Part shown: positions 9,563-41,623 of the stretch, in pieces
How positions within the stretch are numbered: position 1 is the first letter of the stretch
Layout: each line of letters begins with the position of its first letter
Source of the DNA: an uncultured Candidatus Poseidoniales archaeon
Lineage (GTDB): Archaea > Thermoplasmatota > Poseidoniia > Poseidoniales > Thalassarchaeaceae
Assembly (NCBI GenBank): GCA_964013425.1
Contig: CAXGWC010000002.1
Location: 22,818-86,817, forward strand
Length of the DNA stretch: 64,000 nt
Reading direction: 5' to 3'
Position numbers and translations under genes: made by a program
The notes under the pieces: model-generated
Told to the model about the DNA's origin: nothing
Seen by the model: the letters and a program-made list of their open reading frames with translations, nothing else
Databases searched by the model: none

Positions 9563-9575
9563 TTGGTAACGTAAA

Positions 9576-23030: not shown

Positions 23031-24104
23031 ATGCAACCACCTTCTGGGACCCCTATGCGACACTATCCTAGCGAGCTGGTGGACCTAAGAAGCGACACTG
23101 TCACCCAGCCTACTCCAGAGATGAGAGAGGCTATGGCCAAGGCATCTGTGGGCGATGATGTATTGGGCGACGATCCTACTGTTATCGAGCTTCAGGAGAT
23201 GGTAGCAGATATTTTCGGGAAGGAAGAGGCACTCTTTGTCCCATCGGGAACTATGTCGAATGCGATTGCTATTAGGGCACAGACCGAGCCAGGAGACGAG
23301 ATCATAACAGAGAGATACAGTCATATTTACATTTACGAGGGAGGTGGATATGCCGCTCTATCAGGATGCTCAATAGCACTCGTTCCAGGAGAGGGAGGCA
23401 TAATGGATCCAGCCGATGTGGAAGCCTCAATCAGGAAGGGCGATGGAAGCCTCGGGCACTACCCTAACGGTAGCATGGTATGCGTCGAGAATACCTCTAA
23501 CCGTGGAGGTGGGACCTGCTACTCTGAGGAAAAATTGGATGGAATCGCCAAGATCGCCAGGGAAAACAATTGCAGGTCCCACATAGACGGAGCTAGGATT
23601 TTCAACGCTTCAATATCTAGCTCACTGAGTCCTAAGAGAATGGCTAGGGAGTACGATAGTATCTCGGTATGCCTCAGCAAGGGACTAGGGGCTCCTGTGG
23701 GAAGTGTACTGGTGGGGTCGGCCGAAACCCTCTACAAAGCACATAGGTGGAGAAAAATGTTCGGCGGGGGGATGAGGCAGGCAGGAGTACTGGCAGCCGC
23801 TGGGATATACTCCCTGGAGAATAACGTCCATAGACTCTCAGAAGATCATCACAGGGCTATGGAGATAGCAACGGCTGTTGAAAGAATGGATTCCTACGAA
23901 GTCGATCTTGAACAAGTACAAACTAACATGGTGTATGTAAAATGTGACCAGGGAGGGGCCGAATCGCTAATCCATAGATTGGAGAAGTTGGGCATCCAAG
24001 CCCTTACAATTGACAGCTCCACAATAAGAATAGTAACGCACCTTCACATTACTGACGATGATGTACAGAGGACAATCAGTGCCCTAGAATCAGCACAACC
24101 ATGA
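23031..24104 (+). CDS. ltaE: low-specificity L-threonine aldolase
   Basis: DLRSDTVT motif, PLP fold-type I features (GTMSNAIA...VCVENTSN), PLP-lysine region [14 protein letters not shown]. Confidence 0.85.
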
Positions 24105-24140
24105 GTAACTCTTCAATAATACAATCTTCCGGCGTTCATT

Positions 24141-25082
24141 ATGAGGGTTATCCTAGCAGTGATGATGTCCGCAGTGATTCTCCTTCCATTGCAGGCCAGT
24201 GCAGCCACAGAACAGTTCTGGGATCACGCTAGGTACGACTCCGACGGTTTGCAAGTAGACGGCGGAACGATTGGTTTCACTACGCATTGGAACCTCTCCT
24301 CTAACAATGACACCGGAGAAAACCACTCCTACAATGTAGATGAAATGCCAATTTTAGTCGAGATATACACCGCTACATGGTGCACTAACTGCGTAACCAC
24401 GCAAGGCATAATGAGCGATGCTATAGGGGACTCAGATGTGGAAATGATACACTATCACAGACATTGGTTCGAGCCACGCGACCCTTTCGGGAGTAATAGT
24501 ACTGAAGAGCGATGGACGAACACATACGGTCACGCAGTGACACTCAACGGCGGGGCACCTCGGCTAGCACCCACCAAAGTAGTTGATGGGGAGAGAATGC
24601 ATTACGGGTCTAGGGCCAACTCAGACTCTCTGATGGACGATTATACAGCTTCCCTATCCAAGGGGCCTAACGGGCTCCTCAATGGAAATATATCACTGAA
24701 TCTACATCAGTTAGAGGACTTCATTAGTTTTGATTGGGACATTTCCTCGCTAGCTATTGCCACACAAAAAGAGTATAGCTTGGAACCATGGATTCTTCTA
24801 ATAGAAGAGGAGGCATATTTCCCAAATGGGTCGAATGGATTGGAGACGTACGAACACGTTCTCCTTGAGGCACTTTCACTAGACTCAAGTAAGAACTCAT
24901 CAGGAGTCATTGAAGTCCCCCTCCCCTCGCTATGGGATGGAGACGACCTGAAAGTGGCATTATTGGTCGATTGGCTCGTTGAATACTCTCCGTCTGGATC
25001 CCCCCTTCCGCCTCCAAGCATAGTCTATCTGCTCACATCATTGGTTGCTATGGCTTACGTTAGAGGTCCTAGACTGTCCTAA
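24141..25082 (+). CDS. secreted thioredoxin-fold protein (WCxxC) with C-terminal membrane anchor
   Basis: Signal peptide; VEIYTATWCTNCV thioredoxin-like active-site motif; C-terminal hydrophobic IVYLLTSLVAMAYV. Confidence 0.5.
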   Translation: MRVILAVMMSAVILLPLQASAATEQFWDHARYDSDGLQVDGGTIGFTTHWNLSSNNDTGENHSYNVDEMPILVEIYTATWCTNCVTTQGIMSDAIGDSDVEMIHYHRHWFEPRDPFGSNSTEERWTNTYGHAVTLNGGAPRLAPTKVVDGERMHYGSRANSDSLMDDYTASLSKGPNGLLNGNISLNLHQLEDFISFDWDISSLAIATQKEYSLEPWILLIEEEAYFPNGSNGLETYEHVLLEALSLDSSKNSSGVIEVPLPSLWDGDDLKVALLVDWLVEYSPSGSPLPPPSIVYLLTSLVAMAYVRGPRLS

Positions 25083-25123
25083 ATGCTATTTATGTCAGTT
25101 GGGTTGAATAACCTCCGCCGTCC

Positions 25124-28100
25124 ATGGTTGATTCTAGGAGGGACTCGATGGAGCCGAATGTGGACTCAATTACAATTGAAGAGATACCTGTTGGAGCAAT
25201 TCCCAACTGGCTCTTCGATCATTTCGTCGACCAGGCAATAGATCCTAGGCCCGTTTCCAAAGGGGGCCCTTCGAAAGTCCTAACAATATACTCCAATGAG
25301 AACAGTAGAAGACAACACATGTCTATGCTCAGCAACATAGGTTTCGCTTTCGACAGGACCCTCCACCATACTCTGGAGTCACTCAAGTCCTCCCTAATGG
25401 CGGACCTGAGGATCCCGAGAAAAATCTCTTTAGGACCTTCCTTCGACTTAGTACTGCATAATTTATGCTCAGAAAGAGCATCGGATCTTTCCTTCCCACT
25501 GATCAATCCTCTGCCTAATATGCATTGGGGGGAGGGGAAGACTACTGCTCTCTCAGAGCTACACACTTTCCTCTCAAAAGAGTCCTCAACAGCCTCATGG
25601 GATGGTCCAGGAATGCACTCTTTCAGAGAGATTCTAAGAGACATTGAATCGAAGACGGGAGGAACTCATCCTGATTTTCTGACATCTAAGATACTGGAAG
25701 GTATTGAATTCGTTGAAACTCCTTTCACACTACTGGATATTGATGGTATTATCATGCTAGATCATGCCTCTCCCATCAACAAGTCAGATTCGGAACTACT
25801 CACTGCTCTTTCCAAAATTCGCCCCATTCATCAATTAACATATCCAGGGAGTTACAGGCTTGGATTTCACGGGTTTCAACTGGTGGATGATTTCCCTATA
25901 ACAGATACAGACGATTTGCCAGAATGGATTCCCAGACATGAAATATCCAACCACAAAAATGCCCCAACTGTGAATAGGGTTTTTGTTAATAGAGAGGAAC
26001 AGTCTTTTGAGGCCTCTATTTCGATTGCCAGAGGCTTTCTATCAGAGGAACCCAATTCAACAGTCCTAATCATCGATCCATCATTTGAAGAAAATCAAAC
26101 CAGATGGAGCAAAATGATACATGATTTGGGACTGCCCGTATCTGGACTAAAGAAACCCATAATACATTCACCATTAGGCCACTGGTTACATGAGTTGGCT
26201 AAAATTGGAAACGGCTCTAACTCTTTCTCAATGGATAAGCTAAGATTGTTGGCCTTACAGGAATCGCTCTCCCCTTTTTCTCCTTTCCACAATGAAGATA
26301 ACACCAATGATATTTCACCTCATCCCGATATAGAGCTACTATCTCAAATTGCAAGGTCAGAGCACATTCTAGGAGGACCAGGCGCTTTAGAGAGGTGGAT
26401 GGAGGCTCTATGCAGGCCCTCCAAGAAAGACGAAAAGGGCCCCGCACGTGAATCAACTCAGTGGTGGATGATCGCACTCGTATCGTCAATACTTCCACTT
26501 CTAGATAAGACAGATAGAGAACTTCTATCAAATCAAAGACTTCTCACAGGATGCCACTCCGGAAAACTTCTCGAAGTGCCCAACTCGCCATCTACTGGGG
26601 ATGAGTGGCTCGCTAGAACTTTTCAACAAATAGACACCGCTATCACAATTGACTCTCTGGATGGAAACGCAATACCAATATCGTCCATAATAAAGGCAAT
26701 CACATCTGAGCACGAGTCCTTGAGGTCACTGCAAAGATCAGTCGGACAGCCTCCTCCTGCAGGAGGGTCAGAATGGGTATCAGAGCTATCATCCATACTC
26801 AAGACCGCTTCTCTTCCGGTTCCGGTATCAGGCATCAGCTCAAGACTAAGAGTCATGGCGCCAAAAGACGCTCTTGGTTGCAACTCAGACATAGCTATAC
26901 TGGCAAATACATCAGCACCCTCATGGAATCTCAGATCGCCAAAAATACCCTTCATAGGAGAAATGGAGAGACACAAATTCGAGCTTCTGAGGCCAGACGT
27001 TCCTATTACCAAGGCACGTCATCACCTGTATCACATTCTCAATTGCTGTAGTAAAGTGATTTTGATAGACCCCAGCTTGGATAAGTCCACACCTCTAGCA
27101 CCTCCCTTGGAGGAGATCTTAGCTTACTGTACCTCACCAGTCCACTTCGATCCAAACTCCGAGGAGAATCTCGGCCCTAGGGACATTAAGCAACTTGATG
27201 GAATACTACTCCGAAACATGAAGAATTCAAGCAATCCACCCCTCAATCCCAGTGCGATTACCATTCCCCTCGATGTAGAGCTTCAGAGGGATAGGGAGAG
27301 AAGGCAACCTAGCAAGGCTGACTCAGAAGGATACCTTCCAGCCGAATATAGAAACAGGGTTATTTTGTTCGACTACGACGATTTGACAAGAAAGACTCCA
27401 GAGGGAGTAGAAAATCCTCGTAATTCTACTATTTGGCCAGTCATTGGAGCCACCAGTAGCGACGGGAAGAACTCCGTAACCATTGATCCCAGACCATTTA
27501 CTCCGATACCGTCCGGTTCAGCTGTATCGGATAGCAGACATGGCCATTCAGACGGCGCCAATCAGGAAATACAACTATGGTCTCCAAGCAGGCTTCAAGA
27601 ATGGGCTATGTGCCCTCGAAGAGGATGGCTATCAAGAGGACTCAGAATTAGAGAGGAAGAGACACAGAGCGAAGATCTTGATCCGAGAATCCATGGGGAC
27701 CTCCTTCACCAGGTACATCACGATCTTATTTGTGAGGTCCTAGGCATGCAAGAGCAAGTGGAAAGGGACATATCAGGAGCTCTAGAGGGGCATTTTCCCA
27801 CCAATATAGCCGATTCGGGCTTAGAAGAGCAAGACATCATGCAGAAGGCCCTCGAAATCCTTGACAAACTAGCACCATGGCTGGAACGATCTGATGGTGT
27901 TTCCACCTTTAGACTCAGAATGCTCACCGGTATGTCACACATTGAATGGAAAGACTGGCTGGCCAACCCAGTCAGGGCCCCGCTAGGAGGTAGAATAGGA
28001 GCAATGATAAGATCAGAAATGCAACTTTCAGACTCAATGCCCATTGCGTTGGAATGGGAAATTTCTAATGGTTCAGAGACAGGCTCAGAAATTTCTCTGA

Positions 28101-28729
28101 ATCAAAATGAAACCAGTCCAAATCAGATAGAATTGCCTTCCATAATGATCAATGGAAAGATAGACAGGGTGGATATAATTCCATTCGACAAAGAAGGCAA
28201 TGAATGGATTAATGATGACGGATCAATTGAGATAGCGCCATTAAGACTCTTCGAAAAGAATGACTGGAAACCTCGTAGAAGAGTGATTATCAGAGATTTG
28301 AAGACTTCAGAGAAAAAGCCTTCAGATAGGAACAAGGAAGGCCTTCTTAACGAACTTCAATTGGCAATTTATTCCAGAGCATGGGAGATCAACCACCCAG
28401 GAGACTTGGTCGTGGGGGCTGGTATCTCAACCATTGGGCACTCCACAGAACATCTCGTTGAGCCTTCAGCCAACCATCGATCAGAATTAGAATCACTTTC
28501 AGTAGGAACGACCACCTCTCTGACCACCAGATTGCATAGATTCCCAGACGAATCCACCAATCCCAAGAGTGACCCCTTCAGAGCATGGATGGCCCAGCGA
28601 CTTTCAGTTGCATTAGGGGTTGCTAATGGGGCCGTTGAAGGTAGAGTACACCCAACTCCATCCAAATCAGCATGCAGATACTGCCCAGTGAGTAGTATAT
28701 GCGCAGTCAAAATGGAGGATGACTACTGA
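25124..28729 (+). CDS. addB: AddB/RexB-like nuclease subunit: degenerate N-terminal helicase-like region + C-terminal RecB-family nuclease with Cys cluster
   Basis: C-terminal nuclease motifs in AddB order: SPSRLQEWAMCPRRGWL, HGDLLHQVHH, GKIDRVD, IIRDLKTSEKK, QLAIYS, then CRYCPVSSIC (AddB-type Fe-S staple). N-terminal region has no canonical Walker A (KGGPSKV) or helicase motifs. Stop overlaps the start of the downstream helicase gene. Confidence 0.65.
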   Translation: MVDSRRDSMEPNVDSITIEEIPVGAIPNWLFDHFVDQAIDPRPVSKGGPSKVLTIYSNENSRRQHMSMLSNIGFAFDRTLHHTLESLKSSLMADLRIPRKISLGPSFDLVLHNLCSERASDLSFPLINPLPNMHWGEGKTTALSELHTFLSKESSTASWDGPGMHSFREILRDIESKTGGTHPDFLTSKILEGIEFVETPFTLLDIDGIIMLDHASPINKSDSELLTALSKIRPIHQLTYPGSYRLGFHGFQLVDDFPITDTDDLPEWIPRHEISNHKNAPTVNRVFVNREEQSFEASISIARGFLSEEPNSTVLIIDPSFEENQTRWSKMIHDLGLPVSGLKKPIIHSPLGHWLHELAKIGNGSNSFSMDKLRLLALQESLSPFSPFHNEDNTNDISPHPDIELLSQIARSEHILGGPGALERWMEALCRPSKKDEKGPARESTQWWMIALVSSILPLLDKTDRELLSNQRLLTGCHSGKLLEVPNSPSTGDEWLARTFQQIDTAITIDSLDGNAIPISSIIKAITSEHESLRSLQRSVGQPPPAGGSEWVSELSSILKTASLPVPVSGISSRLRVMAPKDALGCNSDIAILANTSAPSWNLRSPKIPFIGEMERHKFELLRPDVPITKARHHLYHILNCCSKVILIDPSLDKSTPLAPPLEEILAYCTSPVHFDPNSEENLGPRDIKQLDGILLRNMKNSSNPPLNPSAITIPLDVELQRDRERRQPSKADSEGYLPAEYRNRVILFDYDDLTRKTPEGVENPRNSTIWPVIGATSSDGKNSVTIDPRPFTPIPSGSAVSDSRHGHSDGANQEIQLWSPSRLQEWAMCPRRGWLSRGLRIREEETQSEDLDPRIHGDLLHQVHHDLICEVLGMQEQVERDISGALEGHFPTNIADSGLEEQDIMQKALEILDKLAPWLERSDGVSTFRLRMLTGMSHIEWKDWLANPVRAPLGGRIGAMIRSEMQLSDSMPIALEWEISNGSETGSEISLNQNETSPNQIELPSIMINGKIDRVDIIPFDKEGNEWINDDGSIEIAPLRLFEKNDWKPRRRVIIRDLKTSEKKPSDRNKEGLLNELQLAIYSRAWEINHPGDLVVGAGISTIGHSTEHLVEPSANHRSELESLSVGTTTSLTTRLHRFPDESTNPKSDPFRAWMAQRLSVALGVANGAVEGRVHPTPSKSACRYCPVSSICAVKMEDDY

Positions 28730-31700
28730 TGATTCCCAATACCGCTCAACGCCTCGCGCTAAACTTGGATTCACATATTGTAATCGATGCTGGAGCCGGG
28801 ACAGGAAAGACCAAGACCATCATCGATAGAGTGATTGAGCACTATCTCTGTGGAGATCAAAGGGCCACTAGGATACTCCCAGTCCCAGAAAGACCCCCTC
28901 CACCAAGAGGAGGGATCCTAATTTCCCCCTCTTCGGAGACGGTAGCTCCCAAGGATCACCCCGGGCTTCTCCCTGGAGAGGTAGTTCTGCTAACGTTCAC
29001 CAACAAGGCGGCAGATGAGATGAGGCATAGGTTGAGGGATGAGATATTGAAACTGAGAATGGGCTCCTCTTCGGTCTCCGAACAGAATAGAGCCGATCCA
29101 AGAGTAACCCATCCCGGCCTTCCTGAGCAGCTTCTAACCCTTCTGGAGGACGCCCCAATAGGTACCATAGACTCCTTCTTCAATCAATTAGTCTCTCCTT
29201 ACAGAGGATTCCTAGGAGATGCTCTCAGCAGGGAGAATATTTCTGATGCAAGCAGGATACTACTTATCGAAGACGCACTCGATACACTTTGGCGGCTTCC
29301 AAGCTCAATCTCTGGTCTAGGAGATGCAGTCGATGCAGGTATTCCAGCAGAGATAGCGTCAGATGTCCTCAAAGCCAGAGAGAGAATAGCTAGGAGATAC
29401 TCTGGTAGGAAGACCGCAGCTAGGCTACTCCGCGGTCTTGTTAGGAAATCCGTCTTCATCGAGGAAGGACTCAGGAGAATCACTGATAAGAACGGCCATG
29501 TAGACCCCCTACTACTCAGGGAAAGAATCCTATCTACAACTGATAGGAAACTAGTCGAGTCAATGTGTTCGAGGATAAATGAAAGTAGTGAGAGATATTG
29601 TGAAATCATCCTTGGATCTCCTGAAATGGTAGCTGGGGGCATTCCCCAAGAATCGAGAATGGCCTGTCTGTTAGCACTAAATAAACAGAATCCGTCTGAT
29701 ACATGGGGACAATTAGTATGGCTTGCGCATCATCTAGATTGCACCACAAGTGCGCCAACAGTTCAATCTGGTTCTCCAACCATATTTCCCAGACAAAATA
29801 TTCCTGATGACAGCCATTGGCCGAGAGGGGTAAAGTCTTGGAGCGCAATAAAGGACAAGCACACCAAGGAATCTACCAAAGAAGCACTAAACTTGGAAAT
29901 AGATAGAATCAGGAACGCATGGACCGACTCTACTGGTTCCCTGACTCTCCATTTTGCTCAGATTGCAATGCTTCTAGACTCGGCATCCCCTCCCTGCTCA
30001 CCTCCCTCTCGTGGAAAATCCCTGTCCCCCTTGCCAGACACCATCCCAGATAGGCTTCCTCAAGGAGAAAAATCAGAGAGATACTATTTCACCATAGAAG
30101 CAGAAGCTGGGAATCTGGATGATCTCAGGCTAGCACATCTGGGATTCAAAGGTATTCTGAAAAGAATGAAGGAAAGAGAAGAGGTCCACGACTTCGATGA
30201 TATACAGGCCTTAGCAGGCGACCTACTACTTTCCAAGTGCCCAGAAGTGTGTCGTAAATACTACCCCCAAGAGGTAATTAGAGAACTGGATTCCATAGGC
30301 GATGAACCTTGGAGAGACGATCATATCCTGGCTGCGTTAAAGCAGATATCCACATTAGAAAATAACCCAAAGTTAGCAGGAGAATCAATATCCGAATTAA
30401 CAGCTATCAGATCAGATCTGGAAAGGAGACACGATCTTCTCAGGACCATTCGAAGGAGATTCAGGGCATTCATCATTGACGAGGCACAGGATAACTCACC
30501 TCTCCAATGGAGGCTTCTTTCCAGACTCTGGGGAGAGAGGAGCGTCCTGGAGGGGGAGATTCCAACCCCAGATACGCCATGGCAACCCACTGTGTGCTAC
30601 GTTGGCGATGTCAAGCAGAGCATCTATGCTTTCAGACAGGCCGAGGTGGTCGGATTCCTTGAATATGCTAGAACACTGATGGCAATAAATCGTCACGAAT
30701 TCTCCAGTATCCAGTTATTACGACAAAAACCAACACTAAGAAAGATCGACAGTAGCAGGGACCCAAGAAATGCACATCTAGTGGGAATCAAACAGGCAAA
30801 GACACTGACTCGCTTATCTGGAATTGATACGACACCATGGGTTCCTTTCGATCTTCCAGATAGAGGACGTATCCCAGAGCCCGAGGAAATCGATAGAAGG
30901 AGGAACGGATTAATCCGACTAAATGTTAACTATCGTACCAAGGGAGGGCTTTTAGAAGCAATGAATCACTGGTGGGATGATGTGTTTTCAGACAGGCACA
31001 AAGACTTCCCAAGAGGAGATTTCTACGCTACATCACAACCCTTGCGCCCGTCTGAGGAAAACTCAGACTCGGCTGGTTCGATTGAATGGATATGCCCCGT
31101 ACTAAATGGCGGGGATGATGATGCTCCAGAAGATCTCACCGCTCCAATAGACTCGTTCGGTTTCGGAAAGCCGAACTCGATCGAAAGGCAGGCGATGCTA
31201 ATCGCACTGAGGGCCAAAAATTTGATCAAAGGAGAGCCAATAAGGGTTCTCTCATCATCAGGAAAGTGGAGCGAGCTACCGGCAGAAGAGCCAATCGCTC
31301 CGAGTGACATAATGATTCTCCTTCCGAGCAGGAGTAAGCTGAGAGATAGCATAATGAGAGAGCTCTCAGTTGTTGGTGTCCCTGCTCAGGCCGACAGGGA
31401 AGGAAGCCTCCTACAACGTCCGACCGCACACGCCCTCGATGGCCTACTACAGCTATTGGCAAGGCCCGACTCTCCCCATCACGCTGCATGGGTGGCAAGG
31501 TCTTCACTAATTGGCCTCGATGACAGACAACTTCAGAAATTCATTGGGGACTCATCTCGAGGGGAAGATATGCTAGCTAGATTACGAGATTTTACAGCAA
31601 ATGACAGGCATAAAGAAATGATAAAAAGATGGGAGATTCTCTCTAGGTCTAGCAGATTAGTCGAAGCTCTTAACGAGACATTGGATAGATCGGACCTATT

Positions 31701-33591
31701 GATGGCCTACCCAGATAATACCTCAAGACAGGATGCCGAGCAGTTTATCCAACTAGTGAGCACGTTGGCTATGGATCTCGGCGGTGACTGCAAAGTAATA
31801 GCGGACAGTGTCCGTAGGCTAAGAGAGGGGGATAAGAACAGTACAGAGGCAGTGAATGTGCCTGACTCAGACGCTGTCAGAGTTATGACAATCCATGGAT
31901 CAAAGGGCTTAGAATCTAAGGTAGTAATCCTGGCAGATGTATTCTCCGGAAGGCAGACCAATATCAGAATAGAATCCTCAGAGAGACTCATTGTCACTCC
32001 TGATTTATTCGGGGGGCATCCCAAGCCATGGCCTTCCAAAGATCCAGTTTCTCCTCTCTGGAAACACGTGAAGAAAATCCACTTGGCCAGAAGGAATGCT
32101 GAAGCAAGAAGGTTGCTTTACGTAGCGGCCACAAGAGCTGAAGACAAGTTGATAATTTGTGGTTCTCCCAAGCACACTAAATGGGAGGATGGAAAGGGAA
32201 TCACCTTTTCTTGGTCTTATGGAAAATCAGCTCCCCAACTCGGAGAGATGTGGCTAGAATCTCTTAGACAGGGTTCATGGAAGAGAGGAGAGGAATCATC
32301 TTATTGGCTTTCTTCAGAGGACTCACAATCTCAATCTCCTCCAAAAGTCACTAACGAAGGTATCAGGGAGATAGATCCACTATTAGCATCAACCTCTGGA
32401 ATGCTAGGGTCAAATAATCTCCATGGGATAACCATATTGCATCATCCGATGTGCTTTGAAACGACAGATAAGACAACTAGAACAGTCCTGACGCCCCTCC
32501 AAAAGATCGAGAGAACCAATCAAGCGTCTTCTGAATCAGCCGCCCTCCTTCCCGCACCAAATACTACATCCAGAAATGATAGGGGGAGCAGAGTAAGGAT
32601 CGCTCCTCACGATCTGACGGTATACAATGAATGTCCGAGGAGATATTGGCTCGAGACAAGGGGAGGTAGCCCGACAAAGAAATCGGAGTATCATTCGGGG
32701 CAACTAGAAAACAAAACATTGCCATCTGGCATAGATGCAGCCACTCTTGGTAAGGTGATTCACAGGATTTTCGAGATAGGGCTGATGAATCCTGGTCCTC
32801 CTAGTGATACCATCCCAAATCTACCCAGCTCATGGATAAGCAAGAGCCCGGACAGACTTACTGATGACTCACTTATGAAACAGGTGTTCCATGAAATACT
32901 GCCGCTGGAAGCAGATAGGGAAGGGTGCTCAAAAATTGTCAGGACAATACTTGAAAGAATTAGAAAAGGACCTCTGGGGGAACTATGCTCTGGCACCTCA
33001 GTTGATGGCCATTTAGTAGACGGCTTACGAACTGAGATGCCATTCCATATTGCTAGGACTGTAGACCCGGGAGGGATTACGAGAGGGAGATGGTCTCCTG
33101 ACGGAATAGAGCCTCTCTCATACATCGAACACGCCTCCTTAGAGATGGATGGAGTGATAGATCTGGTACTTTGTACTACGTCTGAGGAAGGGAGTTTCAT
33201 CAGGCCCATAGACTTGAAGACCGAGGAGGCAGTGAGTATCTCCGATTATGATTCCAATGGCCTAATCTCGTCTTTGGGTAACGATTCAATCAAGCCAGCA
33301 TCTCAAGCGGAGATGGATATTCTCGAACACCACGCAATGCAGTTGACGCTGTATTACTTGTCTTTGAAGTCTATCGAGGATGAGAGGAAGAAAAGAGGGC
33401 TACCTTACAGAGAGGTCCTAAGACCAGCAATATTAGTTGGCATAACTGGTAGAATCGTTGAGTACCCGGAAGACATGTTCCTAACGGCACTGCAAAAGTT
33501 AGACATGGCTATGAATACCGTAACGGAAATGGCACTCTTGTCAGAAGCCCCAATCGCTCGGTATCCTTGCACTTGCTCAACCTGCACTTAG
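28729..33591 (+). CDS. addA: AddA/RecB-like UvrD-family SF1 helicase fused to a C-terminal RecB nuclease domain (1620 aa)
   Basis: Helicase motifs: I GAGTGKT; Ia TFTNKAADEM; II IIDEAQDNSP; III GDVKQSIYAFRQA; IV NYRTKGG; V TIHGSKGLE; VI YVAATRAEDKL. Nuclease motifs: LTVYNECPRRYWLE, GKVIHRIFE, IDLVLCT...IDLKTEE, QLTLYY. Terminal ...RYPCTCSTCT. Confidence 0.75.
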   Translation: MIPNTAQRLALNLDSHIVIDAGAGTGKTKTIIDRVIEHYLCGDQRATRILPVPERPPPPRGGILISPSSETVAPKDHPGLLPGEVVLLTFTNKAADEMRHRLRDEILKLRMGSSSVSEQNRADPRVTHPGLPEQLLTLLEDAPIGTIDSFFNQLVSPYRGFLGDALSRENISDASRILLIEDALDTLWRLPSSISGLGDAVDAGIPAEIASDVLKARERIARRYSGRKTAARLLRGLVRKSVFIEEGLRRITDKNGHVDPLLLRERILSTTDRKLVESMCSRINESSERYCEIILGSPEMVAGGIPQESRMACLLALNKQNPSDTWGQLVWLAHHLDCTTSAPTVQSGSPTIFPRQNIPDDSHWPRGVKSWSAIKDKHTKESTKEALNLEIDRIRNAWTDSTGSLTLHFAQIAMLLDSASPPCSPPSRGKSLSPLPDTIPDRLPQGEKSERYYFTIEAEAGNLDDLRLAHLGFKGILKRMKEREEVHDFDDIQALAGDLLLSKCPEVCRKYYPQEVIRELDSIGDEPWRDDHILAALKQISTLENNPKLAGESISELTAIRSDLERRHDLLRTIRRRFRAFIIDEAQDNSPLQWRLLSRLWGERSVLEGEIPTPDTPWQPTVCYVGDVKQSIYAFRQAEVVGFLEYARTLMAINRHEFSSIQLLRQKPTLRKIDSSRDPRNAHLVGIKQAKTLTRLSGIDTTPWVPFDLPDRGRIPEPEEIDRRRNGLIRLNVNYRTKGGLLEAMNHWWDDVFSDRHKDFPRGDFYATSQPLRPSEENSDSAGSIEWICPVLNGGDDDAPEDLTAPIDSFGFGKPNSIERQAMLIALRAKNLIKGEPIRVLSSSGKWSELPAEEPIAPSDIMILLPSRSKLRDSIMRELSVVGVPAQADREGSLLQRPTAHALDGLLQLLARPDSPHHAAWVARSSLIGLDDRQLQKFIGDSSRGEDMLARLRDFTANDRHKEMIKRWEILSRSSRLVEALNETLDRSDLLMAYPDNTSRQDAEQFIQLVSTLAMDLGGDCKVIADSVRRLREGDKNSTEAVNVPDSDAVRVMTIHGSKGLESKVVILADVFSGRQTNIRIESSERLIVTPDLFGGHPKPWPSKDPVSPLWKHVKKIHLARRNAEARRLLYVAATRAEDKLIICGSPKHTKWEDGKGITFSWSYGKSAPQLGEMWLESLRQGSWKRGEESSYWLSSEDSQSQSPPKVTNEGIREIDPLLASTSGMLGSNNLHGITILHHPMCFETTDKTTRTVLTPLQKIERTNQASSESAALLPAPNTTSRNDRGSRVRIAPHDLTVYNECPRRYWLETRGGSPTKKSEYHSGQLENKTLPSGIDAATLGKVIHRIFEIGLMNPGPPSDTIPNLPSSWISKSPDRLTDDSLMKQVFHEILPLEADREGCSKIVRTILERIRKGPLGELCSGTSVDGHLVDGLRTEMPFHIARTVDPGGITRGRWSPDGIEPLSYIEHASLEMDGVIDLVLCTTSEEGSFIRPIDLKTEEAVSISDYDSNGLISSLGNDSIKPASQAEMDILEHHAMQLTLYYLSLKSIEDERKKRGLPYREVLRPAILVGITGRIVEYPEDMFLTALQKLDMAMNTVTEMALLSEAPIARYPCTCSTCT

Positions 33592-33625
33592 CATATTTCT
33601 CCTAACGCTGGACAGAAGAATCCAT

Positions 33626-35062
33626 TTGCTAAATTGTATACCAATACACATGGAACACGACTTGGACCGGCTTCTGACTATGAGTGATGATATATGGGAG
33701 AACTCAATTATCCCTAGTCTCAGTGAATTCATATCCATCAAGGCCCTCTCTCCACTGTTCGAACCAGAATGGCGCAGGCTAGGGGAGCTTGACGCCACAA
33801 TTGATCTATTCTGTAAGTGGGTCGAAACCCAGAATCTGAATGGAATGACCTACTCAGTTCACAGGATCGAAGACAGGTCTCCAGTTCTGCTTATCACTGT
33901 CGAGGGGACAGGACCGGGTGAGATTGTCTTCTACTCTCATCTGGACAAGCAACCCTCCAAGCCAGAACTGTGGTCCGAGGGACTCGGCCCTTTGAAAGCT
34001 GTCAGGAGAGGTCCGTGGCTCTTTGGAAGGGGAAGTATCGACGATGGATATGGAGGTTATCTATGCGTAGCTTCTCTGAAAATTCTTCAGAACTCCAATA
34101 TTCCTCATCCAAAATGCTCCTTCTTAATCGAAACATGTGAAGAATCGGGATCCTATGATCTACCTCCTTATCTCGAGGCTCTGAAGGAAGATTTAGGAGA
34201 ACCCGATATGATTGTAGTGATGGATAGTGGCGGTCCCGACTACGATCATATCTGGATTACAGAGGCACTAAGGGGTCTTATCTCGGGTACTCTTTCAATC
34301 AAGGTTTCACATGAGGGAATCCATTCGGGCACTTCTGGAGGCTCTATTCCATCTTCATTTAGAATAGCTAGGGCGCTATTAGATAGGGTTGAAGACTCAA
34401 AAACAGGTCAGATTCTAATCCCTGAAATGCACGTTGACATATCCGATGATCTCAGAAGCAAGGCAGAATCACTCGCCAATGTAGTGGGGGATTCGCTCTG
34501 GCAACAGCTGCCCACGGTAGACACGCTCCTCCCGGTTTCGGATAATACTGCAGACATGATTCTGGGAATGAATTGGCAACCCTCACTATGCGTCATAGGA
34601 GCTGATGGCCTACCGTCAGTTCAGACGGCTGGAAATGTACTAAGAACTAATACCGATCTAAAATTGAGCTTTAGGATACCTCCCGGAGTCGATGCAGGCC
34701 CTCTTGAGCCAATTCTGAAGCAAATTCTAGAGGAAAATCCACCATATGGAGCAGAGGTTTCATTCTCACCCGACTCGTCCGCAAATGGCTTTCATTCACC
34801 TCCGCTAGATGGAGAGGTAAAGAGGGCCATTACTGAGGCTTCTACGCTCTTAACCGGTAGACCGCCTTTAGCAACTTGGATTGGTGGAACAATTCCATTC
34901 ATGGCTATGATGCAGAGCAGATACCCAAATGCTAAGTTTCTATGCACAGGAGCCTCTGGACCTGGAAACAATGCGCACGGTCCCGATGAGAAGCTCCACA
35001 TTCCCACGGCAAAGAGATTGACAGCAGTACTAGCAACGACTGTAGCCGCAATATCTAGATGA
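33626..35062 (+). CDS. M20 family metallopeptidase (dipeptidase-like)
   Basis: YSHLDKQP metal-binding motif, GRGSIDDGYGG, dimerisation domain; 478 aa. Confidence 0.8.
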   Translation: MLNCIPIHMEHDLDRLLTMSDDIWENSIIPSLSEFISIKALSPLFEPEWRRLGELDATIDLFCKWVETQNLNGMTYSVHRIEDRSPVLLITVEGTGPGEIVFYSHLDKQPSKPELWSEGLGPLKAVRRGPWLFGRGSIDDGYGGYLCVASLKILQNSNIPHPKCSFLIETCEESGSYDLPPYLEALKEDLGEPDMIVVMDSGGPDYDHIWITEALRGLISGTLSIKVSHEGIHSGTSGGSIPSSFRIARALLDRVEDSKTGQILIPEMHVDISDDLRSKAESLANVVGDSLWQQLPTVDTLLPVSDNTADMILGMNWQPSLCVIGADGLPSVQTAGNVLRTNTDLKLSFRIPPGVDAGPLEPILKQILEENPPYGAEVSFSPDSSANGFHSPPLDGEVKRAITEASTLLTGRPPLATWIGGTIPFMAMMQSRYPNAKFLCTGASGPGNNAHGPDEKLHIPTAKRLTAVLATTVAAISR

Positions 35063-35130
35063 ATACACTAATCCCATGTATTTGTATCCCGTTTCCGCCG
35101 GGGTTAAAGGGGAGGCAGTAGTCCAGCTGT

Positions 35131-35778
35131 TTGGGATACACCATGAGCGATGAGGAAACGATACCTGTCGAACAGGACGATTTGGCCGAGCAACTAGCCA
35201 TGGAGAAGGAAAGACTTGACAAGCTATATGTGGCATATCAGGCAATTGAATCTGAGTTAGCCGACGCCAAGGCCCATATCGAAGTTCTTGAGAAGGACGC
35301 TATCGATAAGGAAATCGAGAAAGAGGGATTAGGGGAACTTCTCAATGAGAAGGACAGTCGTATCAGGAACCTCGAGATAGAGTCTGCTAAGGCAGGAACA
35401 AGAGTAAAGCATCTCGAACCTGAACTTGAGAAGATGGAAGAGATGTACACCAGAGAGCAAGCTAGGCTTGGAAGAGTATTCGATGTCGCAGAGGAGCTTG
35501 ATGAAGCCCTTCAGACCGCTACTTCTGAGTTGAAGGCTAGAGACGACTGGTACGTGGAGCACATGAAGATCTTCGAAGATATCAAGAAGGTCACAGAGAC
35601 AAGATTCGAGATGATTGACAGGGCTATGGAATACTTCAAGGAGTTCCAGGAGAAACAGGATACTTTCAGAGATAGGATGGATGAGACGCTTGAGGCTGTC
35701 AAGGAAGCTGCTTCTGAAAACGCTACTGTTGAAGAAGAGGCTCCTGAATCACCAGAGCAATCACAAGAAGAAGCGTGA
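35131..35778 (+). CDS. acidic coiled-coil protein, unknown function
   Basis: 215 aa, heptad-rich (LEKDAIDKEIEKEGLGELLNEKDSRIRNLEIE...), acidic Glu-rich tail. Confidence 0.5.
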   Translation: MGYTMSDEETIPVEQDDLAEQLAMEKERLDKLYVAYQAIESELADAKAHIEVLEKDAIDKEIEKEGLGELLNEKDSRIRNLEIESAKAGTRVKHLEPELEKMEEMYTREQARLGRVFDVAEELDEALQTATSELKARDDWYVEHMKIFEDIKKVTETRFEMIDRAMEYFKEFQEKQDTFRDRMDETLEAVKEAASENATVEEEAPESPEQSQEEA

Positions 35779-39660: not shown

Positions 39661-39945
39661 GTGTCTATGTCTATCGAAGTACCAAGTTCAGTTGATGAGT
39701 TCATCCAAGGAGAGAAAGAGCCGGCTTCGTCGGGTGTAGTAGTGGTTCTAGGATTCGTTTCAATGCTCTCTTTCCTCATCCTCTACGGGATTCTGTTCCC
39801 AGGGAGGGACATGCCAGTAATTTCTGAAGTCTTACCCATGTTTGAGGGGGTCTTCGACTCAGGGATATGGTTCTTCCTTCTTGGAGTCATCTTCGGTGCA
39901 TTCTCAATTATAGCAACTATGCTTACGGAGGCCACTAGTGAGTGA
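39661..39945 (+). CDS. small two-TM membrane protein
   Basis: 94 aa with two hydrophobic helices; stop overlaps the start of the next membrane gene. Confidence 0.35.
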   Translation: MSMSIEVPSSVDEFIQGEKEPASSGVVVVLGFVSMLSFLILYGILFPGRDMPVISEVLPMFEGVFDSGIWFFLLGVIFGAFSIIATMLTEATSE

Positions 39946-41623
39946 GGTGATTGTCATGGATGTCGTAATATCAACCCTAGCAACTTTCTGGTTGTTGCTT
40001 GCACTATCCTTCGTTCTGATAAAGAGGGGCCTCTGGATATTCAATGATGTTGCCAAGGGCCTAAGCATGTTCATGCTGGAAAAGGCACTGGGTCCTGCCA
40101 TTGATTTTGTAAGCGGACGACCCGGTTCGTCTTCTTCTACATGGATTATCCATGGTTTAGTCTGGGCCTTCGTGGCTTCGACTCTAACATTCATGGGCCT
40201 GTGGCTAAATCATGATGCTACTGCCCTGCATAGCTTCGAATCTTGGGGCTATCACCCTGACTCCTCAGAGCTAATATATGCAGGAAGGCTAACTGCTCTT
40301 TTCGGTGCTATTGGAATGTTGGTAGTTGGGGCCTCCCTCTACTCACTTCCTAGACTATGCGGAACCCATCTTGCCAGTGAGTCAAACGCTACCTTGGTTT
40401 CTCTGCTCTGGACGCTATCTGTATTGCTAATGTTCCTGGGATCGCAGAACGCAGTAATTGCTGGCATCACCATACTTCCAATTGCAAACCTACTCTTGAC
40501 TCTAGCTTCGACTGCCTTGGTCATCAATATGATACTCACAGTTTCCGAGGCTACCCAGGAGATTCCATTCCCGGGCTGGCTCATCGTATACGCATTCATA
40601 GGAAATATAGCAGCCATCCTAGCTATCTTCATAAGCGGTGCATTCAATGAAGGAGTTGGCCAATGGTTACTCTTCCATCTCGCCGGTGGGACATTCTTCT
40701 TCTGTGGGGTAGCTGGAGTATCCCTCTACTCTGTTTCTGTCGGCTCCGGAAATCCACTATGGTCAAAGTCGCTGGTGGCATTCACTCTCTTTGGGGCTGT
40801 CATAACAATCAATCCAATGGGATCAACCGATCCCTCGATGGTTGTCGATTTATTCTCCCTCACAAGCAACGAACTCGAAGCATCATCCAGAGACGTCATT
40901 TCAGGCTCGTTCCTGATGGCTCTCTCCGCAATTCCAATTATTGCATTCAGTGCTAACATGCTGGTGACAATGAGGGGCTCAGATGCCTTCGTTGAGAATC
41001 CAGACTCTCCAGGAATTGCCGAGCTAAACCTAGGAGCTTGGATGCTAATTCCTATTGCTATAGGGTCACTGTTTGTCCAAACCGACGCTCTAGGGGGTGT
41101 CAACGAGCTGAGCGGAATATCACAGTCTCTTGATTTGATGGCAATATGGCTGGTGATGATGCCTTTGTCACTAGGAGCCGCTCTGAACGTTTTACCAAGA
41201 GCTAGTGGAAGGCACCAACTTTCGGCCAACCGCTCTCGATGGGCCTTCTGGATGATGTCAGGAGGTGCTTTCCTGGGACTACTCATTACACTGATGTCCG
41301 ACTTCACAGACATGGCACTCACCGAGTCGATGGCCGAGCAAGGCTCCTCGATTAATCAAGAACTTAGAAAGGTCGGATCAGTGATGTTCTATGGTACGGT
41401 TATCGGTGCAATATTCCACTGTACTAACACAATAAGTGGCCAGTACAGGGGACGAATTATGGGGGATATTTCCAAAGCATCATTATCATCTATAGCAATC
41501 GAGTCGTACAGCCTAACGGGGCCTACCACTATCAGGAAGATACTTGCTAGTGGCGCTACTCTTGATACAGAAGTCTCGCCCTCAGAGCAGAGCGAAGAGA
41601 AGGGCTCTGCAACCGAACTTTGA
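39938..41623 (+). CDS. large polytopic membrane protein (~13-14 TM), unknown function
   Basis: 561 aa, hydrophobic throughout, no recognisable transporter signature. Confidence 0.55.
   Translation: MSEVIVMDVVISTLATFWLLLALSFVLIKRGLWIFNDVAKGLSMFMLEKALGPAIDFVSGRPGSSSSTWIIHGLVWAFVASTLTFMGLWLNHDATALHSFESWGYHPDSSELIYAGRLTALFGAIGMLVVGASLYSLPRLCGTHLASESNATLVSLLWTLSVLLMFLGSQNAVIAGITILPIANLLLTLASTALVINMILTVSEATQEIPFPGWLIVYAFIGNIAAILAIFISGAFNEGVGQWLLFHLAGGTFFFCGVAGVSLYSVSVGSGNPLWSKSLVAFTLFGAVITINPMGSTDPSMVVDLFSLTSNELEASSRDVISGSFLMALSAIPIIAFSANMLVTMRGSDAFVENPDSPGIAELNLGAWMLIPIAIGSLFVQTDALGGVNELSGISQSLDLMAIWLVMMPLSLGAALNVLPRASGRHQLSANRSRWAFWMMSGGAFLGLLITLMSDFTDMALTESMAEQGSSINQELRKVGSVMFYGTVIGAIFHCTNTISGQYRGRIMGDISKASLSSIAIESYSLTGPTTIRKILASGATLDTEVSPSEQSEEKGSATEL

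What the first reader, a model, noticed from the sequence alone, without database searches (positions are those of the whole stretch)
25124..33591. Bacterial-type AddAB/RexAB-like helicase-nuclease operon in an archaeal genomic context
Two translationally coupled genes (1201 aa + 1620 aa) reproduce the AddB-AddA architecture and gene order. The first has a helicase-dead N-region and a RecB-family nuclease with an AddB-style terminal CxxCxxxxC. The second is a complete UvrD-type SF1 helicase (motifs I-VI readable) fused to a RecB nuclease. The flanking genes are unmistakably archaeal (MCM, archaeal ribosomal operon, aEF-1A). Archaea normally resect DNA ends with Mre11-Rad50-HerA-NurA, so this points to horizontal acquisition or an undescribed archaeal end-processing/anti-phage machine. 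Both proteins are also far longer than bacterial AddA/AddB and carry large insertions, for example a Pro-rich segment between helicase motifs I and Ia.
Basis: partly seen in the sequence, partly recalled or inferred. Interest (0 to 1): 0.8.

Follow-up and report, generated by a model that had tools for sequence, protein, structure and literature searches.

The report
AddAB-like helicase-nuclease of marine archaea
Two overlapping genes in this Marine Group II archaeal genome encode a very divergent form of the bacterial AddAB enzyme that unwinds and trims broken DNA ends; the pair is a conserved core feature of the whole archaeal order, not a recent import or an assembly artefact.

Summary

The pair is not a one-off transfer. 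At least 394 species-level genomes encode ORF1 relatives. The best 80 are all Poseidoniales, including single-cell genomes, and named members come from both families of the order. Gene order, neighbourhood and stop/start overlap are conserved. Codon usage is native and dN/dS is about 0.1. No relatives were found on viral contigs, and no defence-system signature was found.

Differences from described AddAB:
- Cysteine (Fe-S type) signatures in both nuclease domains.
- No Walker A in the AddB-like subunit.
- About 390 extra, conserved residues in the AddA-like subunit.

Verdict: a lineage-wide, divergent single-motor, dual-nuclease AddAB-type end processor. It is a new variant of a known kind, of moderate interest. 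Biochemistry, Chi dependence and its relation to Mre11-Rad50/HerA-NurA are untested.

The parts
25124..28729 (+). ORF1, the AddB-like subunit. Longest ORF 1201 aa; probable true start is ATG 25148, giving 1193 aa.
25137..25150 (+). GGAGG (25137-25141) followed by ATG 25148: the probable ribosome-binding site and true start of ORF1.
   Evidence: Sequence. TAGGAGG plus ATG recur in the related loci printed, three of which (L007, L008, L013) lack any in-frame start further upstream. Gene-called homologues are 1193 aa.
25148..27559 (+). ORF1 helicase-like body (about residues 1-804 of the 1193-aa form). It has the SF1/UvrD fold, no helicase motifs and no Walker A. Inferred to be a DNA-scanning or scaffold module.
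   Evidence: Foldseek aligns about 740 columns to UvrD/PcrA/Rep at 1e-9 and the full length to AddB. 0 of 119 homologues have G-x4-GK[ST] in the first 100 residues. Weak collinear hits to addB_alphas at residues ~530-720 of family members. hhalign against S. meliloti AddB, E 8.7e-5.
27560..28726 (+). ORF1 RecB-family (PD-(D/E)XK) nuclease domain. Positions in the 1193-aa numbering: catalytic E969, D1006, D1050-x-K1052, Q1071/Y1075; four cysteines C822, C1176, C1179, C1185.
   Evidence: PDDEXK_1 2.2e-17. Invariant and near-invariant columns. C-x2-C-x5-C tail in 110 of 119 homologues. Cas4-type match around the first Cys.
28673..28702 (+). C-x2-C-x5-C (CRYCPVSSIC), the three C-terminal ligands of the putative Fe-S 'iron staple' of ORF1.
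   Evidence: Translation. Conservation. This tail is modelled with low confidence (pLDDT below 50 for residues 1168-1193).
28727..28731 (+). TGATG: the stop of ORF1 overlaps the start of ORF2 by one base (translational coupling).
   Evidence: Sequence. Of 71 related loci the overlap is 1 nt in 55, 4 nt in 10 and longer (13 or 31 nt) in 2; the other 4 have a 2-nt gap.
28729..33591 (+). ORF2, the AddA-like subunit (1620 aa): an SF1A helicase motor plus a C-terminal nuclease.
   Evidence: Pfam. NCBIfam addA_alphas 4.5e-43, recB 6.5e-40, addA_Gpos 1.6e-37. PDB best match is AddA 3u44_A. dN/dS 0.07-0.08.
28729..32178 (+). ORF2 UvrD-type helicase region (residues ~1-1150). Motifs: I GAGTGKT (22-28), Ia LLTFTNKAA (87-95), II DEAQD (584-588), III GDVKQSIY (626-633), IV NYR (734-736), V TIHGSKGLE (1054-1062), VI YVAATRA (1131-1137).
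   Evidence: Invariant and near-invariant columns in 30 homologues. Alignment to AddA and to S. meliloti AddA.
28846..28983 (+). Conserved Pro-rich insertion between helicase motifs I and Ia (residues ~40-85; RATRILPvPERPpp...). It is absent from AddA.
   Evidence: Near-invariant R45, A46, T47, R48, P51, P53, R55, P56, G62. 34-37 residue offset relative to B. subtilis and S. meliloti AddA.
32596..33588 (+). ORF2 RecB-family nuclease domain (residues ~1290-1620). Catalytic E1436, D1478, D1495-x-K1497, Q1538/Y1542. Cysteines C1302 and the C-terminal C1614-x-C1616-x2-C1619.
   Evidence: PDDEXK_1. Invariants. AF2 model pLDDT 83. Foldseek: AdnA nuclease 7e-7, AddB 7e-6, AddA 1e-5, Dna2 2e-5, RecB 3e-5. 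Homologous to the ORF1 nuclease (hhalign 94%, E 1e-7).

Best explanation
The two genes encode the subunits of a very divergent AddAB-type helicase-nuclease that belongs to the vertically inherited core genome of the Poseidoniales (Marine Group II archaea).

Proposed mechanism:
1. The two proteins are made by coupled translation and form a heterodimer that binds a double-stranded DNA end.
2. ORF2 (AddA-like) is the only motor. It is an SF1A helicase that tracks 3'->5' on one strand and unwinds the duplex.
3. The two RecB-family nuclease domains, one per subunit, each cut one of the separated strands. This is the single-motor, dual-nuclease logic of AddAB.
4. ORF1 (AddB-like) provides a helicase-shaped but ATP-blind body through which a strand passes. 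By analogy with AddB and RecC it could read a regulatory (Chi-like) sequence.
5. The product would be a 3' single-stranded tail for the archaeal recombinase RadA. Like AddAB and RecBCD, the enzyme would also destroy unprotected linear foreign DNA.

Shown here: the gene pair and its overlap; intact motor and nuclease motifs; the AddB-type fold of ORF1; lineage-wide conservation, synteny and purifying selection.

Inferred: complex formation, strand assignment, Fe-S binding by the cysteines of both subunits, any Chi-like control, hand-off to RadA, and an ancient bacterial origin.
For: - ORFs and the 1-nt overlap. The overlap is kept in 67 of 71 related loci.
- ORF2 has UvrD-helicase, UvrD_C and PDDEXK_1 domains. 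All 30 family members match AddA and RecB models (best E-value addA_alphas 2.2e-45), and addA_alphas is the top hit for the window protein. The best PDB sequence match is B. subtilis AddA. It shares 25% identity over 453 aa with S. meliloti AddA, E 9e-15. Motifs I-VI and the nuclease motifs are invariant.
- Distribution: at least 394 species genomes, and the best 80 are all Poseidoniales, including SAGs and a 1.6-Mb contig. Named members come from both Thalassarchaeaceae and Poseidoniaceae.
- The same neighbourhood (MCM-GatE-...-PTH2-Thr aldolase-pair-M20 peptidase) holds even for the most divergent members.
- Native codon usage and GC. dN/dS 0.07-0.11.
- No defence-system or viral association.
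Against: - Scores are far below NCBIfam equivalog cut-offs: 148 against 861 bits for AddA, and at most 30 against 487 bits for AddB.
- ORF1, alone or as a profile, finds no AddB in PDB by sequence. Its assignment rests on a predicted structure at about 12% identity plus weak profile hits.
- No Walker A in ORF1. In B. subtilis AddB this site stabilises the Chi complex (PMC3321194).
- The cysteine tail of ORF1 is modelled with low confidence. 38 of 119 AddA-like proteins have only C-x2-C in the tail.
- Heterodimer formation, nuclease and helicase activity, and any Chi sequence were not tested.
- Whether these genomes also carry Mre11-Rad50/HerA-NurA was not tested, so the enzyme's place in the cell's repair network is unknown.
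Confidence: 0.75

Rival explanations
1. The pair is mainly a defence nuclease against viruses or plasmids, a helicase-nuclease effector comparable to Gabija GajB, DdmDE or Druantia DruE, rather than a recombination enzyme.
For: ORF2 hits GajB (UvrD helicase) models in PADLOC, and ORF1 hits Cas4 fragments. The pair evolves faster than its neighbours: about 45% identity against 60-70% across MGIIb. AddAB and RecBCD themselves degrade foreign linear DNA (established knowledge).
Against: - The GajB hits (at most 59 bits) are weaker than the AddA/RecB hits (129-148 bits) and are generic UvrD similarity. There is no GajA or other partner gene.
- The pair is found in hundreds of species genomes of the order (all of the best 80 are Poseidoniales) at one fixed housekeeping locus. 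This is unlike patchy, island-borne defence systems.
- dN/dS is 0.07-0.11, like neighbouring housekeeping genes.
- No relatives on IMG/VR contigs.
Confidence: 0.1
2. The two proteins work independently. ORF2 would be a stand-alone UvrD-Cas4-type helicase-nuclease, as described in bacteria and mesophilic archaea. ORF1 would be an unrelated large PD-(D/E)XK nuclease that happens to be adjacent.
For: UvrD-Cas4 fusions of the PF12705 branch are reported as stand-alone genes in bacteria and mesophilic archaea (PMC5704561). Haloarchaeal plasmids carry ~1200-aa UvrD-like proteins with no AddB-like neighbour listed. No complex was demonstrated here.
Against: - ORF2 follows ORF1 in all 83 loci. The stop/start overlap is kept in 67 of 71.
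- ORF1 has the AddB fold: a helicase-like body that in AddB and RecC exists only as a partner of a motor subunit.
- The order addB-addA is the canonical one, also seen in S. meliloti.
Confidence: 0.07
3. The segment is a recent bacterial transfer, a binning contaminant or a chimeric assembly.
For: The architecture is typical of bacteria.
Against: - GC and codon usage match the rest of the window.
- The pair is flanked on both sides by the same archaeal genes in 83 loci from independent assemblies. These include single-cell genomes and contigs of 1.6 and 3.0 Mb.
- An exhaustive profile search of 1.84 billion representatives lists only this family's ~35 full-length clusters and fragments of it among the best 150 hits. 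Every one of those clusters that carries a source name is Poseidoniales.
Confidence: 0.01

Closest known systems
Alphaproteobacterial-type AddAB (NCBIfam TIGR02784 AddA / TIGR02786 AddB; reference pair from Sinorhizobium meliloti, L085)
   Same: - Gene order addB then addA.
- Single UvrD-type motor in AddA, with a RecB-family nuclease at the C-terminus of both subunits.
- AddB has no Walker A: S. meliloti 'NVFTIPAGLPFLRTV' against window 'ITIEEIPVGAIPNWL'.
- These are the best-scoring profile families for both subunits. Direct similarity: 25% over 453 aa for AddA; hhalign E 8.7e-5 for AddB.
   Different: - Scores are far below equivalog cut-offs.
- In the S. meliloti reference pair neither subunit has cysteines at the sites compared (first nuclease motif and C-terminal tail of AddB; C-terminal tail of AddA), whereas both MGII subunits carry them there.
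- ORF2 is about 430-480 aa longer, with conserved insertions.
- ORF1 is about 170 aa longer than the alpha-type model.
- The host is an archaeon with RadA, not RecA (established knowledge).
Bacillus subtilis AddAB (PDB 3U44, 3U4Q, 4CEH-4CEJ)
   Same: - ORF1's model matches AddB best, and ORF2's best PDB sequence match is AddA.
- AddB carries a 4-Cys cluster (PMC3321194). Its arrangement, one Cys upstream of the nuclease core plus C-x2-C-x5-C at the end, is from my own recollection; ORF1 has exactly that pattern.
- Single motor, two nucleases.
   Different: - B. subtilis AddB keeps a Walker A that binds ATP and stabilises Chi recognition. ORF1 has none.
- The structure paper places the Fe-S cluster in AddB and describes none in AddA. 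ORF2 has an invariant upstream Cys and a terminal C-x2-C, plus a third tail Cys in 81 of 119 homologues.
- ORF2 has extra residues relative to AddA: +34 between motifs I and Ia, +152 between Ia and II, +68 between III and IV, and +125 after VI.
Mycobacterial AdnAB
   Same: - Heterodimer of two helicase-like plus RecB-nuclease subunits that are paralogous to each other.
- The ORF1 and ORF2 nuclease domains are likewise homologous to each other.
- AdnA is the second-best structural match of ORF1 and the best match of the ORF2 nuclease domain.
   Different: - AdnA retains Walker A and B and binds nucleotide. ORF1 has lost them.
- In AdnAB the Fe-S cluster is described in AdnA (PMC8789073).
RecBCD (RecB + RecC + RecD)
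   Same: - ORF2 matches RecB nearly as well as AddA.
- RecC is a helicase-shaped, ATP-blind Chi scanner like the body of ORF1, and is the third-best fold match.
   Different: - No RecD-like second motor gene in the conserved neighbourhood.
- RecC's nuclease-like domain is inactivated (title of PMC1185551, listed), whereas ORF1 keeps all catalytic residues.
UvrD-Cas4 fusion proteins of the PF12705 branch (Hudaiberdiev et al. 2017, PMC5704561)
   Same: ORF2 has the same domain content: a UvrD-like SF1 helicase plus a PF12705 (PDDEXK_1) nuclease that carries a Cas4-type cysteine pattern. Such fusions are reported in bacteria and mesophilic archaea.
   Different: Those genes are described as stand-alone or in non-conserved contexts. 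Here the gene is always coupled to an AddB-like partner.
Archaeal Mre11-Rad50 / HerA-NurA end-resection system
   Same: Presumed functional analogue: it produces 3' tails for RadA (PMC12977600).
   Different: Unrelated proteins and mechanism. Its presence or absence in Poseidoniales was not tested here.

Membership tests
AddAB (AddA subunit) | SF1A UvrD-like helicase with intact motifs I-VI | tested here: met
   Pfam UvrD-helicase 2.3e-31 and UvrD_C. The motif residues are invariant or nearly invariant in 30 homologues. Aligned to AddA.
AddAB (AddA subunit) | C-terminal RecB-family nuclease with motifs I-III and QxxxY | tested here: met
   PDDEXK_1. E1436, D1478, D1495/K1497 and Q1538/Y1542 are invariant. 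The fold matches AdnA, AddB, AddA, Dna2 and RecB nucleases.
AddAB (AddA subunit) | Reaches the curated NCBIfam equivalog score (TIGR02784 or TIGR02785) | tested here: not met
   147.8 bits against a cut-off of 860.75, and 129 against 707.65. These are still among the best-scoring families in all 30 members.
AddAB (AddB subunit) | N-terminal UvrD-like fold with the helicase motifs lost | tested here: met
AddAB (AddB subunit) | C-terminal RecB-family nuclease with an intact active site | tested here: met
   PDDEXK_1 2.2e-17. E969, D1006, K1052, Q1071 and Y1075 are invariant and D1050 is at least 90% conserved.
AddAB (AddB subunit) | Four-cysteine Fe-S 'iron staple' (present in many, not all, AddB proteins) | tested here: met
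   The sequence signature is present: C822 plus C1176-x2-C1179-x5-C1185, and the tail motif is in 110 of 119 homologues. Metal binding itself cannot be tested here.
AddAB (AddB subunit) | Walker A (motif I) retained near the N-terminus, as in B. subtilis AddB | tested here: not met
   0 of 119 homologues. The feature is not universal: S. meliloti alpha-type AddB also lacks it.
AddAB (AddB subunit) | Reaches the curated NCBIfam equivalog score (TIGR02773 or TIGR02786) | tested here: not met
   The window protein scores 12 bits on addB_Gpos. Family members score at most 29.5 bits against a cut-off of 486.5 on addB_alphas.
AddAB (operon) | Adjacent, co-oriented addB-addA genes | tested here: met
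   Overlapping genes. Conserved in 83 loci. Same order as in S. meliloti.
AddAB (function) | Heterodimer that unwinds and degrades from dsDNA ends and responds to Chi | not testable with these tools
   No multimer prediction or biochemistry is available. No Chi search was attempted (see Tried and rejected).
RecBCD | Third subunit RecD (SF1B motor) and a nuclease-dead RecC | tested here: not met
   No further helicase gene in the conserved neighbourhood. The ORF1 nuclease site is intact.
AdnAB | Both subunits keep Walker A/B motor motifs | tested here: not met
   ORF1 lacks a Walker A and has no UvrD-helicase profile hit. The AdnA features are taken from PMC3321194 and PMC8789073.
Gabija (GajA/GajB) and other PADLOC defence systems | Full-length match to a defence-system model together with its partner genes | tested here: not met
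   Only partial GajB/UvrD matches of at most 59 bits and Cas4 fragments; no GajA. The neighbours are housekeeping genes.
Stand-alone UvrD-Cas4 fusion (PF12705 branch) | UvrD-like helicase fused to a Cas4-like Cys-containing nuclease, encoded alone | tested here: inconclusive
   The domain content fits ORF2. The stand-alone context does not fit. No phylogeny was made.

The most novel reading that the evidence does not exclude
Poseidoniales, the most abundant planktonic archaea of the surface ocean, use a bacterial-type AddAB machine as their main DNA-end resection enzyme. It would feed archaeal RadA, and would have partly or wholly displaced HerA-NurA (and perhaps Mre11-Rad50). This machine would be a previously undescribed AddAB class with Fe-S clusters in both nuclease domains and an ATP-blind AddB. 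It would possibly be controlled by an archaeal Chi-like sequence.
Probability: 0.3. Interest if true: 0.7.

Novelty: new variant of a known kind. Interest (0 to 1): 0.55.

Why it matters
Textbook accounts give archaea Mre11-Rad50/HerA-NurA for DNA-end resection and give bacteria RecBCD/AddAB (e.g. PMC12977600).

Here a whole, globally abundant archaeal order carries a conserved, selected AddAB-type pair at a fixed core locus. Public records name these genes only 'UvrD-helicase domain-containing protein' and 'PD-(D/E)XK nuclease family protein'. The papers I could search do not discuss them.

If the pair is active, three things follow:
- A bacterial-style resection motor works upstream of a eukaryote-like recombinase (RadA). 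That raises a testable question of how loading is achieved.
- Chi-like control sequences might exist in archaeal genomes.
- It would add a form of AddAB with cysteine clusters in both nucleases.

It also gives a marker for annotating MGII genomes. The general idea that addAB has reached archaea by transfer was already suggested in 2009 (cited in PMC2887965), so the kind of system is not new.

Tried and rejected
- Sequence searches of ORF1 against PDB found no AddB, either alone or as a 30-sequence profile. Only a marginal Cas4 match around the first cysteine appeared. The AddB link needed structure prediction.
- hhalign of the ORF1 family against the N-terminal fragment of S. meliloti AddB found nothing.
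- The afdb50 fold library was not available, so no organism-labelled structural neighbours could be obtained.
- Cromie 2009 (the AddAB/RecBCD phylogeny) and Yeeles 2009 (the AddB Fe-S cluster) are not held. What I say about them comes from papers that cite them.
- Defence-system reading: PADLOC gave only generic UvrD and Cas4 fragments, and the IMG/VR scan gave no relatives. Rejected as the primary reading.
- Recent-HGT or chimera reading: rejected by composition and by synteny.
- Dna2 reading: the weak PF08696 hit (0.003, below cut-off) covers only the region around the first Cys. In both proteins the nuclease is C-terminal to the helicase(-like) part, and ORF2 is a UvrD-type helicase by Pfam. 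From my own knowledge, Dna2 has the opposite order and an SF1B motor. Rejected.
- A bacterial donor could not be identified. The exhaustive profile search listed only the archaeal family among its best 150 hits. The plasmid/chromid search gave 25% identity at best.
- Literature searches for MGII with Rad50, Mre11 or DNA repair found nothing usable.
- I considered a search for strand-skewed, over-represented oligomers (Chi candidates) but did not run it. The replication direction of the window is unknown, and gene-strand codon bias dominates skew in 64 kb, so the result would have been uninterpretable.
- The third large homology search was left unused. No available query could answer whether Mre11-Rad50/HerA-NurA are present in these genomes.
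Full report
OBSERVATION

The window holds two long co-oriented ORFs exactly where stated: 25124..28729 (1201 aa) and 28729..33591 (1620 aa). The TGA of the first shares its A with the ATG of the second (TGATG).

The true start of ORF1 is probably ATG 25148, giving 1193 aa. GGAGG lies at 25137-25141. The same ATG preceded by TAGGAGG recurs in the related loci printed, three of which have no in-frame start further upstream. Gene-called homologues are 1193 aa.

The surroundings are archaeal:
- MCM and GatE.
- PAC2 and Trm1.
- L10P, Spt5, FtsZ and family-B DNA polymerase.
- L1, acidic P1, aEF-1alpha and PTH2.

WHAT THE PROTEINS ARE

ORF2 carries UvrD-helicase, UvrD_C and PDDEXK_1 domains.
- Its best NCBIfam families are addA_alphas (4.5e-43), recB (6.5e-40) and addA_Gpos (1.6e-37). 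All score far below the equivalog cut-offs. These three models also give the best E-values across the 30 family members, all of which match them.
- Its best solved-structure relative by sequence is B. subtilis AddA, followed by PcrA/UvrD/RecB and AdnB.
- Against a bona fide alpha-type AddA (S. meliloti, L085) it shows 25% identity over 453 aa, E 9e-15, plus motif II-III at 38%.
- In a 30-sequence alignment the helicase motifs are invariant or nearly so: GAGTGKT, LLTFTN-AA, DEAQD, GDVKQSIY-FR, NYR, TIHGSKGLE, YVAATRA. So are the nuclease residues E1436, D1478, D1495-x-K1497 and Q1538/Y1542.

ORF1 has only a C-terminal PDDEXK_1 domain (2.2e-17) and sub-threshold Cas4/Dna2-type matches around its first cysteine.
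- Neither ORF1 nor a 30-sequence profile of its family finds AddB in PDB by sequence.
- An AlphaFold2 model built on that alignment is confident (mean pLDDT 82.8).
- With Foldseek its five best matches are all chain B (AddB) of B. subtilis AddAB: 4e-21 to 2e-19, about 1200 aligned columns, TM about 0.5, 12% identity. AdnA (1e-15), RecC (5e-10) and UvrD/PcrA/Rep (1e-9) follow.
- Sequence support exists but is weak. 12 of 30 family members hit addB_alphas (best 2.5e-8). In five scanned members of the divergent branch of the family the hit lies in the helicase-like body, collinear with the model (residues ~530-720 against model 565-753 of 1024). hhalign of the family against S. meliloti AddB aligns the same region, E 8.7e-5.
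- The ORF1 nuclease site is intact: E969, D1006, D1050-x-K1052, Q1071/Y1075.
- Four cysteines are conserved: C822, and C1176-x2-C1179-x5-C1185. As far as I recall, this one-plus-three arrangement is that of the AddB and Cas4 Fe-S cluster; the papers read here confirm only that AddB has a 4Fe-4S cluster and that Cas4 clusters have four Cys ligands.
- No family member has a Walker A in the first 100 residues (0 of 119). At the P-loop position the window protein reads IPVGAIPNW.

FEATURES THAT DIFFER FROM DESCRIBED AddAB

1. The AddA-like nuclease also carries a cysteine signature. There is an invariant Cys in a CPRRxW motif like that of ORF1, and an invariant terminal C-x2-C. A third tail cysteine is present in 81 of 119 proteins: C-x2-C-x8-10-C in 65, and C-x-C-x2-C in the window's clade (16). 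The remaining 38 show only C-x2-C in the tail.
- The two nuclease domains are homologous to each other (hhalign 94%, E 1e-7).
- A confident model of ORF2 residues 1200-1620 (pLDDT 83) matches the nuclease domains of AdnA (7e-7), AddB (7e-6), AddA (1e-5), Dna2 and RecB. This fits an Fe-S-type RecB nuclease but is not decisive.
- In the described enzymes the cluster is reported in AddB or AdnA (PMC3321194, PMC8789073).
- In the S. meliloti reference pair the AddB nuclease start and both C-terminal tails lack cysteines.

2. The loss of Walker A separates ORF1 from B. subtilis AddB and from AdnA. It is shared with S. meliloti AddB, whose N-terminus (NVFTIPAGLPFLRTV) even resembles the archaeal one.

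3. ORF2 is 388 aa longer than B. subtilis AddA. I compared motif positions with the residue numbers given in PMC3321194. The extra residues lie as follows:
- +34 between motifs I and Ia (the conserved Pro-rich insert);
- +152 between Ia and II (domain 1B);
- +68 between III and IV;
- +125 after VI.
ORF1, by contrast, is about the length of Firmicute-type AddB.

DISTRIBUTION AND EVOLUTION

- Both proteins have hundreds of full-length homologues of constant size. Where named, they come from Poseidoniales, Thalassarchaeaceae, 'Euryarchaeota' or Thermoplasmatota MAGs.
- A scan of one genome per GTDB species found at least 394 genomes encoding ORF1 relatives. The best 80 are all Poseidoniales/MGII. 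They include single-cell genomes and a 1.6-Mb contig.
- An exhaustive HMM search of 1.84 billion representative proteins found about 35 full-length clusters plus fragments of the same family. Nothing with another architecture appeared among the best 150.
- Named members include both Thalassarchaeaceae and Poseidoniaceae.
- ORF2 follows ORF1 in all 83 loci held. Of 71 loci scored, the stop/start overlap is 1 nt in 55, 4 nt in 10 and longer in 2; the other 4 have a 2-nt gap.
- The neighbourhood is kept in 60-74 of the 80 loci from the genome scan: Thr aldolase-like, a Cys-motif membrane protein, the pair, M20 peptidase, a coiled-coil protein and a hexapeptide transferase. In the two most divergent clusters examined the wider frame MCM-GatE-...-PTH2-pair is kept; the M20 peptidase follows the pair in one of them and the aldolase-like gene precedes it in the other.
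- GC content and codon usage are native.
- dN/dS against two relatives is 0.08-0.11 for ORF1 and 0.07-0.08 for ORF2. This is similar to neighbouring housekeeping genes and higher than MCM.
- The pair was therefore present in the ancestor of the order and has been inherited vertically under purifying selection. A bacterial origin is plausible, because the architecture is otherwise bacterial and alpha-type models score best. It is neither recent nor demonstrated.

MECHANISM (INFERENCE)

The anatomy is that of a single-motor, dual-nuclease end processor: one competent SF1A motor, two competent RecB-family nucleases, and one helicase-shaped ATP-blind subunit. The most likely function is resection of double-strand ends for RadA-dependent recombination, with degradation of linear foreign DNA as a by-product, as for AddAB and RecBCD.

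Not tested: complex formation, strand assignment, Fe-S binding, Chi-like regulation and hand-off to RadA. Whether these genomes also encode Mre11-Rad50/HerA-NurA could not be tested with the tools and caps available.

RIVALS

- A dedicated defence role has no specific support. PADLOC gives only generic UvrD/GajB and Cas4 fragments, there are no viral relatives, and the locus is fixed and housekeeping.
- Independent action of the two proteins is unlikely, given obligatory coupling and the AddB fold.
- Contamination or recent transfer is excluded.

COMPARISON WITH THE LITERATURE

- Transfer of addAB 'even into the archaea' was suggested in 2009 (cited in PMC2887965).
- UvrD-Cas4 fusions in mesophilic archaea were noted in 2017 (PMC5704561).
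- The main MGII genomics paper mentions no helicase or nuclease.
- Searches combining AddA/AddB with Euryarchaeota, or Poseidoniales with nuclease/helicase or Rad50, found nothing relevant.
- Public records name the proteins only generically.

VERDICT

This is a lineage-wide, highly divergent AddAB-type system: a new variant of a known kind, of moderate interest.

Noticed in passing
window 24141..25082 (+): A 313-aa ORF lies 41 nt upstream of ORF1. It has a signal-peptide-like N-terminus, a WCTNC (thioredoxin-like CxxC) motif and a hydrophobic C-terminus, and no Pfam hit. It sits directly upstream of the pair in 74 of 80 related loci, but is poorly conserved (34-52% identity). Whether it is co-transcribed with the pair is unknown.
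   Followed up: partly
window 6431..13384 (+): An unusually fused branched-chain amino-acid type ABC transporter. It comprises a 1043-aa protein with three solute-binding domains (SBP_bac_3, Peripla_BP_6, ANF_receptor) and a 1245-aa permease with two BPD_transp_2 stretches. The binding-protein gene has GC 0.557 against about 0.48 elsewhere, and the second most deviant codon usage among the 31 ORFs compared. It may be a later acquisition.
   Followed up: partly
window 35131..35778 (+): A 215-aa acidic protein with a Glu/Lys/Leu-rich, coiled-coil-like sequence (by eye) and no Pfam hit. It is conserved two genes downstream of the pair in 66 of 80 loci.
   Followed up: no
window 23031..35778 compared with loci L003-L079: Across MGIIb the two helicase-nuclease proteins diverge faster (about 45% identity) than their syntenic neighbours (about 60-75%). 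dN/dS nevertheless stays near 0.1.
   Followed up: partly
L084:1807-5445 (Haloarcula sp. CBA1115 plasmid) and about 40 other haloarchaeal plasmids: The best plasmid-borne relatives of ORF2 are ~1200-aa 'UvrD-helicase domain-containing' proteins on haloarchaeal plasmids (25% identity over 35% of the query). In the one example inspected no AddB-like neighbour is listed. These may be the stand-alone UvrD-nuclease fusions described in mesophilic archaea.
   Followed up: partly
L085:2352-5532 (Sinorhizobium meliloti Ak57, CP090106.1): The addB gene upstream of addA is split into two overlapping ORFs (341 and 762 aa) and is missing from the gene table. This is either a frameshift or a sequencing error. 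The record is labelled pSymB but is 3.7 Mb long.
   Followed up: no
L081 (ENA ERZ26167216, contig of 3,002,195 bases): One of the most divergent versions of the pair (AddB-like 1164 aa, AddA-like 1558 aa) sits in the same MCM-GatE neighbourhood on a 3.0-Mb contig. That is larger than I would expect for an MGII genome (own knowledge: about 2 Mb), so it may be a deep or unusual lineage.
   Followed up: no
window 39938..41623 (+), 50435..51934 (-), 60110..61048 (-), 2768..3754 (-): Four sizeable ORFs (561, 499, 312 and 328 aa) have no Pfam match at 1e-5. The 2768..3754 ORF overlaps an opposite-strand ORF (2751..3794), so one of the two is probably not a gene.
   Followed up: no
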